From: Candidatus Ryanbacteria bacterium
GTDB taxonomy: Bacteria > Patescibacteriota > Minisyncoccia > Ryanbacterales > GWA2-47-10b
NCBI GenBank assembly: GCA_943354465.1
Contig: CALRCC010000001.1
Coordinates: forward strand, 1-37,208
Length of the DNA: 37,208 bases
Direction of reading: 5' to 3'
Part shown: piece after piece, positions 21,628-26,927 of the stretch
How positions within the stretch are numbered: position 1 is the stretch's first letter
Layout of the letters: every line of letters starts with the position of its first letter
The notes under the pieces: generated by a model
Database searches by the model: none
The model's input: the letters and a program-made list of their open reading frames with translations, nothing else
What the model was told of the DNA's origin: nothing
Program-made: the position numbers and the translations under genes

Positions 21628-23577
21628 ATGGAAGATAATCAGAAGATTCGCATTCCGTTACTGGGATTCACCGTTATTTTAACGGCGATATTCGCAATTG
21701 GGCTTAGGTGGGTATTTTTCGCGGCACCATCAACCGATAGCGCTATCTTTTATCTCTATGACTATGCGGTAGGCCTTACGATGATTTTTTTGCCGTGCAC
21801 ATTGCCACTTGCATTTGTGGTGGTACCACTCGCGATGGGCAAGGGATACGCTCGTGGTATTGGCATCGCAGCGGCTTTTGCCGCTGGCGTTACACTCACG
21901 CTTAGTTTTTATGGGGCACTATTGGGGCAAATCGGCTTAACCTTTTTGGGTAGTGCCGAGACGGCGAAAAACTGGATGTATATGTTTGCAGGTGCCATGG
22001 GGCTTCTCTTTGCATTTCATGATATTGGTTTGCGCGGGTTTAAAATGCCAACCTATAGCGGTGCGTTTCCTGATTTTATCCAGCGTCAGCAAGAGTTTGT
22101 AAAAGCATTTTTGCTCGGTCTTTTCTTGGGCAATGTGGGAGTTGGTTGTCCAAATCCACTTTTCAATGGCGTAATAATCCCGCAGATTTTGGTGAGCGGT
22201 AGTGCGTTTCAAGGGTGGCTCATCATGGTAGTACAGGCGCTCGGACGCGTGACTCCTCTATTCATCCTTACTTTTTATGCAATTTTGGGCGTCAATGCAA
22301 CTGGTTTTTTGGTCAAGCATCGCACCAAAGTTGAGAGATCGACAGGATGGGCGATGGTGTTTATCGCAGGTTTTCTGTTTACGCTTGGAACATTTACACA
22401 TGATTGGTATGTATCTTCAGGTATCCATACCTATCTTGAGAGCGTGACGCAGGAGGAGTTTATAACAAATATTTTAGGCTCAAATATAGGTAAGCTTGGT
22501 CACGCACACGAGGCTCCGCCAGCAGCAGGCAATCTATGGATTGGGAGTTATATGATGGTGACTATTTGGCTTATTCCGTTTATCTGGGTTTGGTTGCGCA
22601 AACGCCGCGAGGCCTATACATCTGCTGAAGCGGAGCGCGTGCAGAAGATACACGGCTCGCGCACATATCTAAGTTTTGTTGTTTGGCTCGCTATCGGTCT
22701 ATACACACTTTTTGGTTGGGTATTACCGCACAACTTCCAATTTCATACGAAACATATGGATATGGATATGGATATGGATATGGATATGGTATTTAGTAGC
22801 GCGGTGAGTACTGATCCTGCAATGCCAAAGCCGGACGAGATGACAAAGATAACTATCGCGCTAAAAGATGATGGTGGGGCGCCTCTGCAAGATCTAGAGG
22901 TCGATCATGAGCGTTTGGTGCATGTAATTATTGTCTCCGAGGATCTTGCAACCTTTATGCATATCCATCCTGAAGATTTTGAACCAATCACTGATGAAAT
23001 GCGTGCTAAGGGCGAGTTCTCTGTGCAAGTCAAGTTCCAAAATAGTGGTACATATTATATCGCAAGCGGATTCTCACATAAGGGGCATGCAGGCGTGGTG
23101 CGCAACACAATTATCGTGCATGGTGACAGACAAGAGCCGGTAGTGATTATAAAAAACACTATGCGTGAAGAGAGGTTTGATGATTTCATGGTAAGTCTAA
23201 AGACCAATCCAGAACAAATCCAATCTGGTGTGCCAGCGCATCTTGAATATACAATGACAGATGATGCTGGAAACCCAGTAGGCGATATGGTCAAATACCT
23301 TGGCGCGCCTATGCACTTGGCGCTTTGGAGTTATGATCTTGGCTATTTCCTCCATACGCACGGTGAGGTGCCAGGATATGGCCACGACGTGCCTGCTGGT
23401 GCGTCATTTGGCCCAACAATCGACACACATGTCACATTCCCATATCCAGGTCTGTACCGCGCGTTTGCGCAGTTCTCACGCGATGGCAACGACTATACCA
23501 CTACCTTTGATATATCTGTTACCAAAGGGCAAGGAGACGCAGGCATGATGCAAGACGGCGGTGAGCATGGCCACTAA
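21628..23577 (+). CDS. fusion protein: CcdA/DsbD-like thiol-disulfide transmembrane domain + (Met-Asp)5 linker + two tandem HxH Ig-like putative metal-binding domains
   Basis: TM Cys motifs FLPCTLPL and GVGCPNPL match the two conserved CcdA/DsbD cysteines. Linker HTKHMDMDMDMDMDMV. Two repeats carry LVHVIIVSEDLATFMHIHPE and MHLALWSYDLGYFLHTHGE. The Met/His tail is GDAGMMQDGGEHGH. Confidence 0.75.
   Translation: MEDNQKIRIPLLGFTVILTAIFAIGLRWVFFAAPSTDSAIFYLYDYAVGLTMIFLPCTLPLAFVVVPLAMGKGYARGIGIAAAFAAGVTLTLSFYGALLGQIGLTFLGSAETAKNWMYMFAGAMGLLFAFHDIGLRGFKMPTYSGAFPDFIQRQQEFVKAFLLGLFLGNVGVGCPNPLFNGVIIPQILVSGSAFQGWLIMVVQALGRVTPLFILTFYAILGVNATGFLVKHRTKVERSTGWAMVFIAGFLFTLGTFTHDWYVSSGIHTYLESVTQEEFITNILGSNIGKLGHAHEAPPAAGNLWIGSYMMVTIWLIPFIWVWLRKRREAYTSAEAERVQKIHGSRTYLSFVVWLAIGLYTLFGWVLPHNFQFHTKHMDMDMDMDMDMVFSSAVSTDPAMPKPDEMTKITIALKDDGGAPLQDLEVDHERLVHVIIVSEDLATFMHIHPEDFEPITDEMRAKGEFSVQVKFQNSGTYYIASGFSHKGHAGVVRNTIIVHGDRQEPVVIIKNTMREERFDDFMVSLKTNPEQIQSGVPAHLEYTMTDDAGNPVGDMVKYLGAPMHLALWSYDLGYFLHTHGEVPGYGHDVPAGASFGPTIDTHVTFPYPGLYRAFAQFSRDGNDYTTTFDISVTKGQGDAGMMQDGGEHGH
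22756..22789 (+). repeat. (ATGGAT)5 hexanucleotide microsatellite inside the CDS
   Basis: Five perfect ATGGAT units (22756-22785) plus ATGG, encoding (MD)5M. Confidence 0.95.
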
Positions 23578-23582
23578 TCTCT

Positions 23583-23759
23583 ATGGATATTTTCGGCATA
23601 CTGTGGGCAGCATCGCTTTTGTTTTTTATCGCAGGCCCGTCGGTAGCTGGTATCGCATTTCATAAAAAGAAGATAACCTTTGCGCAGGCAGTGATCGCGG
23701 GTCTTGGGGCACTCACGATATCGGCAGCGCTTATTTGGTCGCTCGTCACCTTTATCTAA
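23583..23759 (+). CDS. unannotated 58-aa two-helix membrane protein
   Basis: ATG lies 5 nt after the upstream stop. Translation: MDIFGILWAASLLFFIAGPSVAGIAFHKKKITFAQAVIAGLGALTISAALIWSLVTFI. Followed by a terminator. Below the track cutoff. Confidence 0.45.
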   Translation: MDIFGILWAASLLFFIAGPSVAGIAFHKKKITFAQAVIAGLGALTISAALIWSLVTFI

Positions 23760-26445: not shown

Positions 26446-26519
26446 AAAAATTTATAAATATGCTATATTAATATTAACTTTATCTTATCATAGTGGCTTA
26501 AATCACTCTATGCGTATAT

Positions 26520-26927
26520 ATGGGTAATAAATATATCATCTTTCTTTTATTTGGAGCGCTTTTGATTGGCAGTGGCGTTGTCTATGAGAAGTTTTACCGA
26601 CCAAAAGATGTTGGCGCTGTCGTGTGGGATGGTGTGACGGTGTTTGAGCGCAACATGGTCTCGCTTGAAGGGAAATGGCGCTTTGATCCAGATATTATTG
26701 AGACAAAGCGTGGGGCAAAAGTCATTTTACATATTTATAATGCTGATACCTATGATCATGGCATAGGTATTGATAATTTTGCTGTCAACGAGCGTATTTT
26801 CCCAAAGAGTACGACAACCGTGACATTTATCGCTTCAGAAAAAGGGGAGTTTCAATTTTACTGCACTGTCGCTTGTGGCGAAGGCCATTATGATCAAGTA
26901 GGCAAGCTCATCGTCCACGAGGAGTAG
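26520..26927 (+). CDS. membrane-anchored cupredoxin with CuA-like ligand spacing
   Basis: N-terminal anchor IIFLLFGALLIGSGVV. Ligand pattern H80-x34-C115-x3-C119-x3-H123-x2-Q126 (YDHGIGID ... FYCTVACGEGHYDQ). Confidence 0.8.
   Translation: MGNKYIIFLLFGALLIGSGVVYEKFYRPKDVGAVVWDGVTVFERNMVSLEGKWRFDPDIIETKRGAKVILHIYNADTYDHGIGIDNFAVNERIFPKSTTTVTFIASEKGEFQFYCTVACGEGHYDQVGKLIVHEE

What the first reader, a model, noticed from the sequence alone, without database searches (positions are those of the whole stretch)
21628..26927. Copper island reads like a CuA-type cuproprotein maturation module with no oxidase in sight
Five adjacent genes fit one logic:
- copA and copZ export Cu(I).
- The CcdA-like/HxH fusion supplies reductant and candidate extracytoplasmic copper hand-off.
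- A 58-aa membrane peptide follows the fusion gene.
- A membrane-anchored cupredoxin has ligand spacing identical to the binuclear CuA site of cytochrome oxidase subunit II.

In respiring bacteria, CuA assembly needs exactly these activities: a P1B ATPase, a thiol reductase fed by CcdA/TlpA, and a PCuAC/YtkA/Sco chaperone. Here there is no coxA, no coxB membrane portion and no heme-copper oxidase gene in 37 kb, and the gene content looks like a non-respiring, reduced genome. No copper-responsive regulator (CsoR/CopY/CueR) or recognisable operator is present.

The target cupredoxin may therefore be a stand-alone extracellular redox or copper-buffering protein with its own dedicated maturation machinery. 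This is a hypothesis built from motifs and adjacency.
Basis: inference. Interest (0 to 1): 0.7.

Follow-up and report, generated by a model that had tools for sequence, protein, structure and literature searches.

The report
Patescibacterial CuA-type cupredoxin copper module
A tiny, apparently non-respiring groundwater bacterium keeps a copper export pump next to an outward-facing copper protein of the type normally built into respiratory oxidases, plus membrane proteins that probably load and service it; the same cluster recurs in about a hundred related species and does not seem to have been described.

Summary
The 135-aa protein is a membrane-anchored cupredoxin with the CuA ligand spacing H80-x34-C115-x3-C119-x3-H123, except that the axial Met is an invariant Gln (Q126). 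No oxidase gene lies in the 37 kb.

The cluster is a conserved Patescibacteria module, not a chance adjacency:
- Of 80 species-level loci that carry this cupredoxin, 74 have copA and 68 have the CcdA-like gene nearby, mostly as one operon.
- The usual order is Trx-like, DoxX, CcdA-like::tandem His-rich domains, cupredoxin, CopA, CopZ.
It is fused to the cupredoxin in 17 of the 120 listed homologues.
- The 58-aa peptide is lineage-specific.

In sister lineages the CcdA-like domain carries NirK or a multicopper oxidase instead of the His-rich domains. Other relatives fuse the cupredoxin to a multicopper oxidase, one also to Sco1.

Best reading (inferred): CopA supplies copper and the CcdA-like relay keeps the only conserved external Cys pair reduced. 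The CuA-type cupredoxin then serves as an electron carrier for external copper enzymes. I rate it a new variant of a known kind.

The parts
21628..23577 (+). CcdA/DsbD-like membrane protein (649 aa). It has one N-terminal TM helix, a 6-TM core with Cys57 and Cys174, and a His/Glu-rich outer loop (H258, H267, E271, E276, H292, H294). Two further TM helices follow, then a Met/Asp linker, two duplicated His-rich Ig-like domains (H427/H432/H445/H447 and H563/H576/H578) and a Met/His tail.
   Evidence: invariant residues; AF2 model, pLDDT 85.9; topology: N-terminus in, C-terminus out; the two domains are homologous, hhalign 99.6 %. Relatives pass Pfam DsbD_TM.
22756..22785 (+). (ATGGAT)5 hexanucleotide repeat encoding (Met-Asp)5 in the linker before the His-rich domains.
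   Evidence: The closest relatives have a single MD at this place; other lineages have Met/His/Asp/Glu-rich linkers.
23583..23759 (+). 58-aa two-helix membrane peptide, lineage-specific.
   Evidence: 84 %, 55 % and 100 % identity in L001, L005 and L014; the HMM finds it in 2 of 81 loci.
23813..24031 (-). CopZ copper chaperone (72 aa, MxCxxC).
24046..26445 (-). CopA, a P1B-1 Cu(I)-exporting ATPase (799 aa) with one HMA domain and the CPC, YN and MxxSS motifs.
26446..26519 (.). Divergent copA/cupredoxin intergenic region with an AT-rich core conserved in close relatives. No recognised copper operator.
26520..26927 (+). Membrane-anchored, outward-facing CuA-type cupredoxin (135 aa). Ligand set H80, C115, C119, H123 and Gln126 in place of the axial Met.
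   Evidence: pLDDT 93.7; best fold matches: Thermus ba3 subunit II and NosZ CuA domains; topology.
26908..27324 (-). DoxX/MauE-family 4-TM membrane protein (138 aa, no Cys). This is the sixth module member. It is convergent with the cupredoxin gene and overlaps it by 20 bp.
   Evidence: DoxX 24.2 bits; 17 of the 120 listed homologues are DoxX-cupredoxin fusions. (P0132, L067).

Best explanation
This is a conserved Patescibacterial module that builds and services copper proteins on the outer face of the cell membrane.

**Steps that follow from family membership.** CopZ hands Cu(I) to CopA, which pumps it out. The 135-aa protein is a single-helix-anchored, outward-facing cupredoxin with a CuA-type (two-copper, two-cysteine) ligand set in which the axial Met is replaced by Gln.

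**Inferred steps.**
- The CcdA-like protein relays reducing equivalents through Cys57 and Cys174. In most relatives the source is a cytoplasmic Thioredoxin_3 protein encoded in the operon. The relay keeps the cupredoxin's C115/C119, the only conserved external cysteine pair in the module, reduced and able to take up copper.
- The Met/His-rich linkers, the outer His/Glu loop and the tandem His-rich domains hold exported copper next to the membrane for hand-off.
- DoxX is a membrane partner of the cupredoxin.
- The loaded cupredoxin acts as a one-electron carrier for external copper oxidoreductases. In sister lineages NirK or a multicopper oxidase replaces the His-rich domains on the CcdA-like protein, or is fused to the cupredoxin itself.

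In this genome no such enzyme lies in the module, so the carrier's partner here is either the His-rich domain pair or a protein encoded elsewhere.
For: **CuA-type identity.**
- HMMER E = 1e-10 to Thermus CuA domains, with the ligands aligned.
- The best NCBIfam hits are NosZ CuA domains.
- The AF2 model has pLDDT 93.7. Its best Foldseek matches are ba3 subunit II, including the TM helix, and NosZ CuA domains.
- Ligands are invariant in 36/36 sequences.

**Outward orientation.** DoxX-cupredoxin fusions obey the positive-inside rule with the cupredoxin outside.

**Module conservation.**
- 74/80 loci have CopA and 68/80 have the CcdA-like gene.
- Of 37 loci with at least 6 kb on both sides: CcdA-like 35, CopA 34, His-rich domains 29, DoxX 26, Trx-like 22.

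**Gene fusions that tie the parts together.**
- DoxX-cupredoxin, DoxX-CcdA-like-His-rich, and CcdA-like-MCO.
- CcdA-like-NirK, with TIGR02376 at 318-324 bits, above the 296.3 cut-off.
- Cupredoxin(Gln)-MCO-Sco1 and cupredoxin-MCO.

**Redox logic.**
- C57 and C174 are conserved in 40/40 sequences. The His-rich region has no Cys in 39/40 and DoxX has none in 44/52.
- The Trx-like protein is PF13192 with a CxxC motif and no signal sequence.
- Met-type relatives outside this clade also sit next to DoxX and CcdA, without CopA.

**Known biology.** TlpA keeps the CuA cysteines reduced, and Sco plus a PCuAC- or CtaK-type protein is generally needed for CuA assembly when copper is scarce (PMC9145763; PMC6669012). 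CtaK has conserved His and Met residues and a His-rich C-terminal tail, as the fusion protein does.
Against: - No biochemical data exist for any member.
- The axial Gln is not the canonical CuA ligand, so a binuclear purple site is not proven.
- One close relative has an 8-residue insertion inside the Cys-His loop.
- CcdA normally reduces thioredoxin-fold proteins. No external thioredoxin-like acceptor is encoded in the module, so direct action on a cupredoxin has no precedent I know of.
- The window lacks the Trx-like gene.
- Similarity of the His-rich domains to YtkA is sub-threshold. They show no significant match to any solved structure, by sequence or by fold.
- About 85 % of the modules, including this one, have no recognisable redox enzyme for the cupredoxin to serve.
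- The tight link to copA fits copper detoxification equally well.
Confidence: 0.5

Rival explanations
1. Copper-detoxification accessory. The whole cluster is a copper-resistance operon. CopA expels Cu(I). The outward-facing cupredoxin, the Met/His-rich linkers and the His-rich domains capture or buffer it at the cell surface. In the lineages that carry a multicopper oxidase, Cu(I) is oxidised to the less toxic Cu(II). The CcdA-like relay only protects the copper-binding thiols from copper-catalysed oxidation, much as the ScsB/ScsC or DsbD systems support copper tolerance.
For: - The cupredoxin gene lies immediately beside copA in most of the 74/80 loci that have copA. The layout resembles cupA-copA in Streptococcus (my own knowledge).
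- The CcdA-like protein is fused to CueO-like multicopper oxidases in six loci.
- Met/His/Asp-rich linkers and tails are typical of copper-capture segments.
- The DsbD family has a known link to copper tolerance (cutA2/dipZ and the Scs system; my own knowledge).
Against: - NirK replaces the His-rich domains in three loci, and nitrite reduction has no role in copper detoxification.
- Met-type relatives keep DoxX and CcdA as neighbours but not CopA (2/80), so the core partnership does not depend on efflux.
- The ligand set is that of an electron-transfer centre, not of the Cys/Met Cu(I) sites of CupA or CusF.
- The Sco1 fusion points to assembly of a fixed cofactor rather than transient buffering.
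Confidence: 0.27
2. Thiol-fuelled external electron sink. Electrons from cytoplasmic thioredoxin cross the membrane through the CcdA-like Cys pair. They reduce the CuA-type cupredoxin, perhaps by way of copper bound at the outer His/Glu loop. The cupredoxin passes them to a terminal copper site: NirK for nitrite, a multicopper oxidase for O2, and the His-rich domain pair in this genome. Organisms without quinones or cytochromes would thereby gain a way to dispose of reductant or to detoxify O2 and nitrite.
For: - NirK, MCO and the His-rich domains are interchangeable at one position on the CcdA-like protein, while Trx-like, DoxX, cupredoxin and CopA stay constant.
- The cupredoxin is fused directly to an MCO in some relatives.
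- Danczak et al. noted NirK plus a putative cupredoxin in Parcubacteria, with the electron source unknown (PMC5581439).
- Electron transport chain complexes I-IV are absent from almost all MAGs of the same groundwater site (PMC8672522).
- Conserved His and Glu residues lie on the outer face next to the CcdA core.
Against: - I know of no precedent for a DsbD-family dithiol reducing a copper centre as a steady electron flow.
- The His-rich domains show no detectable relation to MCO, NirK or cupredoxins (hhalign below 6 %), and no catalytic site can be named.
- The window lacks the Trx-like donor gene.
Confidence: 0.15
3. Orphan subunit II. The protein is the CuA subunit of a heme-copper or quinol oxidase whose subunit I gene lies elsewhere in the genome.
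For: - The architecture (one TM helix plus a CuA domain) matches Thermus ba3 subunit II over 153 aligned columns.
- JGI annotations call family members 'cytochrome c oxidase subunit 2'.
- Cytochrome o oxidase genes have been reported in some Parcubacteria MAGs (PMC12577380).
Against: - No subunit I-like family recurs in the 80 loci. After the module itself, CopA and the Trx-like protein, one group in 12 loci looks like spurious antisense ORFs and no other family is in more than 7 loci.
- The gene is operonic with copA, not with cox genes.
- The residue between the two Cys is Val, not the Glu that bridges to subunit I in aa3 oxidases (read from the sequence; the role of that Glu is my own knowledge).
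- The axial Met is replaced by Gln.
- The MAGs of the source site lack terminal oxidases.
Confidence: 0.05

Closest known systems
CuA domain of heme-copper oxidase subunit II (Thermus thermophilus ba3 CoxB; PDB 2cua, 1ehk)
   Same: Both have one TM helix followed by a cupredoxin domain. The ligand spacing H-x34-C-x3-C-x3-H is identical. It is the best match by sequence (E = 1e-10 to 3.5e-9) and by fold.
   Different: The axial Met is Gln. There is no subunit I partner gene. The gene sits in a copA operon, and the TM helix has its own strongly conserved motif (NKY...SG..YQ.FYRP).
C-terminal CuA domain of nitrous-oxide reductase NosZ
   Same: It gives the best NCBIfam hit (TIGR04246, E = 8.5e-13). 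It has the same fold and the same ligands.
   Different: The window protein is free-standing, with no catalytic beta-propeller and no nos genes. The axial ligand is Gln.
TlpA-ScoI-PcuC (Bradyrhizobium) and Sco-CtaK/YtkA (Bacillus) CuA assembly systems
   Same: The logic is the same. A reductant keeps the two CuA cysteines reduced, and external His/Met copper chaperones load the site (PMC6669012, PMC9145763). Like CtaK, the fusion protein has a His-rich C-terminal tail. One relative fuses the cupredoxin to Sco1.
   Different: The window has no TlpA, Sco or PCuAC homologue. The reductant relay and the putative chaperone are one polypeptide. YtkA similarity is sub-threshold. The client is not an oxidase subunit.
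DsbD/CcdA/ScsB thiol-disulfide transporters
   Same: The TM core has two conserved Cys, each followed by Pro (LPCTLP and GCPNP). Relatives pass Pfam DsbD_TM. A cytoplasmic thioredoxin-like partner is encoded in the operon in 45 of 81 loci. As with DsbD, an external C-terminal domain follows two extra TM helices.
   Different: The external domain is not thioredoxin-like and has no Cys. It is a His-rich tandem domain, NirK or a multicopper oxidase. These organisms are not known to make c-type cytochromes (my own knowledge; not tested here).
CupA of Streptococcus pneumoniae (membrane-anchored cupredoxin-fold Cu(I) chaperone encoded next to copA)
   Same: Both are small, TM-anchored cupredoxin-fold proteins with a two-Cys copper site, encoded directly beside copA.
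   Different: CupA works on the cytoplasmic side and replaces CopZ (my own knowledge). Here CopZ is present and the domain is predicted to be outside. No sequence match to CupA was listed, and CuA domains are far closer.
NirK with its cupredoxin electron donor in Parcubacteria (Danczak et al. 2017)
   Same: That paper noted that each nirK-carrying CPR genome bin it examined also encoded a putative cupredoxin, and proposed it as the electron donor (PMC5581439).
   Different: It did not report the CuA-type site, the Gln ligand, the fusion of NirK to a DsbD-family protein, DoxX, or the copA operon. Most modules, including this window, have no NirK.

Membership tests
CuA-type cupredoxin (COX subunit II / NosZ type) | Cupredoxin beta-sandwich fold | tested here: met
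   AF2 pLDDT 93.7. Foldseek probability 1.00 to CuA domains. PF13473 E = 3.9e-9.
CuA-type cupredoxin (COX subunit II / NosZ type) | Ligand set H...C-x3-C-x3-H-x2-M with H-x34-C spacing | tested here: not met
   H80, C115, C119 and H123 are aligned and invariant with the same spacing. The axial Met is replaced by Gln126 in 117/120 members. Four of the five side-chain ligands are therefore met.
CuA-type cupredoxin (COX subunit II / NosZ type) | Binuclear mixed-valence (purple) copper centre | not testable with these tools
   Needs UV-vis and EPR spectroscopy on purified protein.
CuA-type cupredoxin (COX subunit II / NosZ type) | Part of a heme-copper oxidase or of NosZ | tested here: not met
   There is no such gene in the window, and none recurs in the 80 related loci.
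CcdA/DsbD thiol-disulfide transporter | Six-TM core with one conserved Cys in each of TM1 and TM4 | tested here: met
   C57 and C174 are conserved in 40/40 sequences. AF2 helices and positive-inside topology agree.
CcdA/DsbD thiol-disulfide transporter | Significant match to the curated family model | tested here: inconclusive
   The window protein has no Pfam hit and only NCBIfam DsbD at 16.9 bits, E = 0.0018. Homologues at 35-45 % identity score 29-38 bits against DsbD_TM, above the 27.1 cut-off.
CcdA/DsbD thiol-disulfide transporter | Cytoplasmic thioredoxin donor and external thioredoxin-fold acceptor | tested here: inconclusive
   A Thioredoxin_3 CxxC protein is in the operon in 45 of 81 loci but not in the window. 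No external thioredoxin-fold protein is in the module. The only conserved external Cys pair is in the cupredoxin.
YtkA/CtaK-like copper chaperone domain (PF13115) | Match to the family model | tested here: inconclusive
   5 of 15 domain-1 sequences match, with best E = 6.7e-4, all below the 25.9-bit cut-off. L042 scores 24.3 bits. Two homologues carry a precomputed PF13115 hit.
P1B-1 Cu(I) ATPase (CopA) | Family model above cut-off plus the CPC, YN and MxxSS motifs and an N-terminal CxxC HMA domain | tested here: met
   TIGR01511 at 591 bits against a 397 cut-off. The motifs were read in the translation.
CopA2/CcoI-type ATPase dedicated to cuproprotein assembly | Phylogenetic placement with the FixI/CcoI clade | not tested
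   No reference set was at hand. The best models hit are the generic CopA and ATPase-IB1 models.
CupA-type cytoplasmic cupredoxin chaperone | Cytoplasmic orientation and a Cys/Met Cu(I) site | tested here: not met
   The domain is predicted to be outside. The ligands are His/Cys/Gln. No CupA match appears in the PDB sequence search.
DoxX/MauE membrane protein | Match to the family model | tested here: met
   PF07681 at 24.2 bits against a 23.6 cut-off. MauE scores 25.8 bits, below its 27 cut-off.

The most novel reading that the evidence does not exclude
The module is a minimal electron-transport line that uses no quinone or cytochrome. Cytoplasmic thioredoxin-type reductant crosses the membrane through a DsbD-family cysteine pair. 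It reduces a natural Gln-ligated CuA centre, which feeds a terminal external copper site (NirK, a multicopper oxidase, or the still uncharacterised tandem His-rich domains). This would give fermentative Patescibacteria a way to reduce nitrite or O2 outside the cell. The tandem His-rich domain pair would then be a new kind of copper redox or chaperone domain.
Probability: 0.18. Interest if true: 0.88.

Novelty: new variant of a known kind. Interest (0 to 1): 0.62.

Why it matters
- **A gap in Patescibacteria biology.** NirK and multicopper oxidases have been reported in these bacteria with no known way to receive copper or electrons. The module offers a concrete, testable route for both. NirK is physically fused to a DsbD-family transporter and sits beside a CuA-type cupredoxin and CopA.
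- **Bioinorganic interest.** It would be a natural CuA-type site with an axial glutamine, conserved in hundreds of sequences. As far as I know (my own knowledge), that ligand has only been studied in engineered mutants.
- **A new role for a familiar family.** The DsbD/CcdA family would extend from thiol-disulfide exchange with thioredoxin-fold clients to servicing copper proteins.
- **Annotation risk.** Pipelines label this protein 'cytochrome c oxidase subunit 2'. That can create false signals of aerobic respiration in MAG surveys of this phylum.

Tried and rejected
- **His-rich domain pair as a very divergent multicopper oxidase or NirK.** The idea was that its HxH motifs form a trinuclear site between the two domains. 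Rejected: hhalign probabilities to MCO, NirK and cupredoxin profiles are below 6 %, while the positive controls score 76-92 %. The two domains are simply duplicates of each other (99.6 %).
- **Structural homologue for the fusion protein.** Foldseek on the full-length model returned only generic tandem Ig/FN3 proteins. Profile searches of the PDB found nothing significant.
- **CopA linkage as a general property of small CuA-like cupredoxins.** Rejected: Met-type relatives in metagenomes have CopA nearby in only 2 of 80 loci.
- **Copper-responsive operator.** CopY-box matches equal chance. The conserved AT-rich core between copA and the cupredoxin gene cannot be told apart from promoter elements. 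No regulator family recurs in the 80 loci.
- **The Trx-like gene in the window.** Absent.
- **Membrane-anchored GSDH-family protein (5190-6404) as a partner.** It is not linked to the module in any related locus.
- **Extra genes in close relatives (252, 171 and 96 aa).** They have no Pfam hit on record and I saw no copper-binding motifs in their translations.
- **Literature.** Full-text searches found no description of the module. One search on axial-Gln CuA mutants returned nothing relevant.

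
Full report
**1. What is in the window**

The window is a whole 37,208-bp contig. 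Its gene content is typical of Patescibacteria: F-type ATP synthase, TGT, CdaA, a LexA-like peptidase, Bcp, Fmt/Def and UppP. The nearest named relatives are Candidatus Ryanbacteria.

- **CopA and CopZ.** CopA scores 591 bits on TIGR01511. It has one HMA domain and the CPC, YN and MxxSS motifs of Cu(I) pumps. CopZ has an HMA domain with an MxCxxC motif.
- **The cupredoxin (135 aa).**
  - It matches PF13473. Among curated NCBI models it matches best the CuA domain of NosZ, and also CoxB.
  - Against solved structures the best sequence matches are engineered and native CuA domains of Thermus ba3 oxidase (E = 1e-10 to 3.5e-9).
  - In those alignments H80, C115, C119 and H123 fall on the CuA ligands, and Gln126 falls on the axial Met.
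  - The spacing H-x34-C-x3-C-x3-H-x2-X is that of subunit II.
  - An AlphaFold model (pLDDT 93.7) finds ba3 subunit II, TM helix included, and NosZ CuA domains as its best fold matches.
- **The fusion protein (649 aa).**
  - The ATG at 21628 is confirmed by an identical database protein.
  - The protein has no Pfam hit of its own. Its homologues pass the DsbD_TM threshold.
  - Both redox cysteines are invariant in 40/40 sequences: C57 in LPCTLP and C174 in GCPNP.
  - The model (pLDDT 85.9) and the charge distribution give this path: N-terminus inside, one extra TM helix, the six-helix CcdA core, an outer loop with invariant H258, H267, E271, E276, H292 and H294, and two more helices.
  - Outside the cell there follow a Met/Asp linker, two Ig-like domains and a Met/His tail.
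  - The two domains are duplicates of each other (hhalign 99.6 %). They carry invariant histidines (H427/H432/H445/H447 and H563/H576/H578) and no cysteine.
- **Absences.** No heme-copper oxidase, cyd, nos, sco or known copper regulator is encoded in the window. No tRNA or Rfam element is present.

**2. A sixth gene and a non-member**

A DoxX/MauE-family membrane protein lies directly after the cupredoxin gene, convergent with it and overlapping it by 20 bp (26908-27324). It belongs to the set for three reasons:
- 17 of the 120 listed cupredoxin homologues are DoxX-cupredoxin fusion proteins.
- One locus has a DoxX-CcdA-like-His-rich fusion (L067).
- DoxX genes are present in 52 of 81 loci.

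In these fusions the positive-inside rule puts the cupredoxin domain outside the cell. The stand-alone protein's N-terminal helix is homologous to the fifth helix of the fusions.

The 58-aa peptide, by contrast, is detectable only in the closest relatives.

**3. The cluster is a conserved module**

A profile search finds 373 homologues of the cupredoxin. They share a very conserved motif, FYCSV[PA]CGxGHYDQ, and a conserved TM helix.

A scan of one genome per species found 108 genomes with a relative. Nearly all are labelled Patescibacteria or CPR lineages. In the 80 loci retrieved:
- CopA is nearby in 74 and the CcdA-like gene in 68.
- Among 37 loci with at least 6 kb on both sides the counts are CcdA-like 35, CopA 34, His-rich domains 29, DoxX 26 and a small Trx-like protein 22.
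- The commonest arrangement is a single co-directional operon: Trx-like (about 86 aa, PF13192, CxxC, no signal sequence), DoxX, CcdA-like::His-rich domains, cupredoxin, CopA, CopZ.
- One further group, in 12 loci, looks like spurious antisense ORFs. No other gene family recurs in more than 7 loci.

In the window the same genes are split into four transcription units and the Trx-like gene is missing.

**4. Variation that bears on function**

- **The external part of the CcdA-like protein is interchangeable.**
  - In three loci it is a bona fide copper nitrite reductase (TIGR02376, 318-324 bits, above the 296.3 cut-off).
  - In three loci it is a two-domain multicopper oxidase.
  - In three loci it is a three-domain CueO-like oxidase.
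  - The rest of the operon stays unchanged.
- **The cupredoxin itself is fused to copper enzymes.**
  - An exhaustive profile search gives 7,297 relatives at E ≤ 1e-3, 1,777 at ≤ 1e-10 and 16 at ≤ 1e-30.
  - Among them are Gln-type cupredoxins fused to a multicopper oxidase, one of which also carries a Sco1/SenC domain.
  - There are also Met-type cupredoxins fused to multicopper oxidases or to a cytochrome-d1-type propeller.
- **The DoxX and CcdA links are older than the CopA link.** More distant Met-type relatives are small lipoproteins or TM-anchored proteins with the full canonical CuA ligand set. In metagenome contigs they are rarely next to CopA (2/80). They repeatedly sit next to DoxX (8 loci) and CcdA (7 loci).
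- **Cysteine census.** Across the module the only conserved cysteines on the outside are the two in the cupredoxin.

**5. Interpretation**

What is shown:
- The family assignments of CopA, CopZ, DoxX and the cupredoxin.
- The CuA-type ligand geometry with Gln in the axial position.
- The conserved Cys pair of the CcdA-like core.
- The outward topology, by prediction.
- Conservation of the module and the gene fusions.

What is inferred:
- CopA supplies the copper.
- The CcdA-like relay services the cupredoxin's cysteines.
- The His/Met-rich parts bind and hand over copper.
- The cupredoxin carries electrons for external copper enzymes.

This reading follows the known logic of CuA assembly. TlpA keeps the CuA cysteines reduced, and Sco plus PcuC or CtaK/YtkA deliver copper (PMC6669012, PMC9145763). 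CtaK has conserved His and Met residues and a His-rich C-terminal tail, as the fusion protein does.

It differs on the status of the cupredoxin. The NirK, MCO and Sco1 fusions argue that it is an electron-transfer component of external copper redox systems rather than an end product or a simple buffer.

Danczak et al. had noticed a 'putative cupredoxin' in nirK-carrying Parcubacteria and left the electron source open (PMC5581439). MAGs from the Hainich groundwater site, which also yielded the closest relatives of this window, lack respiratory complexes I-IV and were noted to carry copA (PMC8672522).

**6. Rivals**

- **Copper detoxification (0.27).** It explains the tight copA linkage, the CueO-like fusions and the Met/His-rich segments. 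It does not explain NirK, the Sco1 fusion, or the CopA-independent DoxX/CcdA association of Met-type relatives.
- **Thiol-fuelled electron sink (0.15).** This is the most novel reading and fits the interchangeable terminal domains. It has no chemical precedent that I know of.
- **Orphan oxidase subunit II (0.05).** The operon context and the lack of any recurring subunit I gene argue against it. Whole genomes could not be examined.

**7. Limits**

- There is no experimental evidence for any member of the family.
- The His-rich domains have only sub-threshold similarity to YtkA and no informative structural match.
- Most modules, including this one, contain no recognisable enzyme partner.
- One close relative carries an 8-residue insertion in the Cys-His loop.
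- E-values for the loci are relative to the candidate sets, and the ORF calls in my scripts are simple stop-to-stop calls.

**8. Novelty**

Full-text searches found no description of this module, of DoxX-cupredoxin fusions, or of DsbD-family::NirK/MCO fusions. All the components belong to known families, so I rate the finding a new variant of a known kind, with moderate to high interest.

Noticed in passing
window 22756-22785: A perfect (ATGGAT)5 hexanucleotide repeat encodes (Met-Asp)5 in the external linker of the fusion protein. The closest relatives have a single MD there, so this looks like a recent repeat expansion in a copper-binding-type segment.
   Followed up: partly
window 24046-26445 compared with 21628-23577 and 26520-26927: CopA is 93-95 % identical to its counterparts in the nearest relatives. 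The flanking cupredoxin (71-87 %) and fusion protein (79-84 %) have diverged much more.
   Followed up: no
L005/L007 10001-10432 (protein P0007): This close relative's cupredoxin has an 8-residue insertion (GVIDGKPR) between the second Cys and the His ligand. That breaks the canonical C-x3-H spacing of the CuA loop.
   Followed up: no
window 5190-6404: A membrane-anchored, outward-facing protein of the GSDH family (PQQ-type glucose/sorbosone dehydrogenase propeller), in a genome unlikely to make PQQ. It is not linked to the copper module in any related locus.
   Followed up: partly
window 19712-20368 and 20546-20740: Just upstream of the module lie a membrane-anchored DUF3105 protein and a 64-aa treble-clef CxxC-x17-CxxC zinc-finger protein. 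DUF3105 was near the module in only 1 of 80 loci and the zinc finger in 3.
   Followed up: partly
window 34405-37208: There is no closed ORF longer than 131 aa in the last 2.8 kb. At the same place (after the signal peptidase gene) relatives encode a giant protein of more than 3,700 aa, so a very large gene probably runs off the end of the contig.
   Followed up: no
L001 6529-7287 and 10893-11695; L005 10508-11304: Close relatives carry extra genes that the window lacks: a 252-aa gene between the peptide and copZ, and a 171-aa plus 94/96-aa pair between doxX (or the cupredoxin gene) and eamA. They have no Pfam hit on record and no copper-binding motifs that I could see in the translations.
   Followed up: partly
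proteins P0003, P0134, P0144, P0149, P0186 and others: Source annotations name this cupredoxin 'cytochrome c oxidase subunit 2' or 'heme/copper-type cytochrome/quinol oxidase subunit 2'. Such labels could produce false reports of oxidase genes in Patescibacteria MAG surveys. A 2025 paper reports cytochrome o oxidase genes in some Parcubacteria MAGs. I did not check whether those are this protein.
   Followed up: no
protein P0341: A 686-aa protein joins two Met-type CuA-like cupredoxin domains to a cytochrome-d1-type beta-propeller. This architecture recalls NosZ and NirS but matches neither.
   Followed up: no
L052 5492-7690 ('uncultured archaeon' MAG) and L067 ('Verrucomicrobiia' MAG): The module also turns up in MAGs labelled archaeon and Verrucomicrobiia. 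In L052 the domain order is reversed (His-rich domains before the CcdA-like core). These may reflect mis-binning or real transfer.
   Followed up: no
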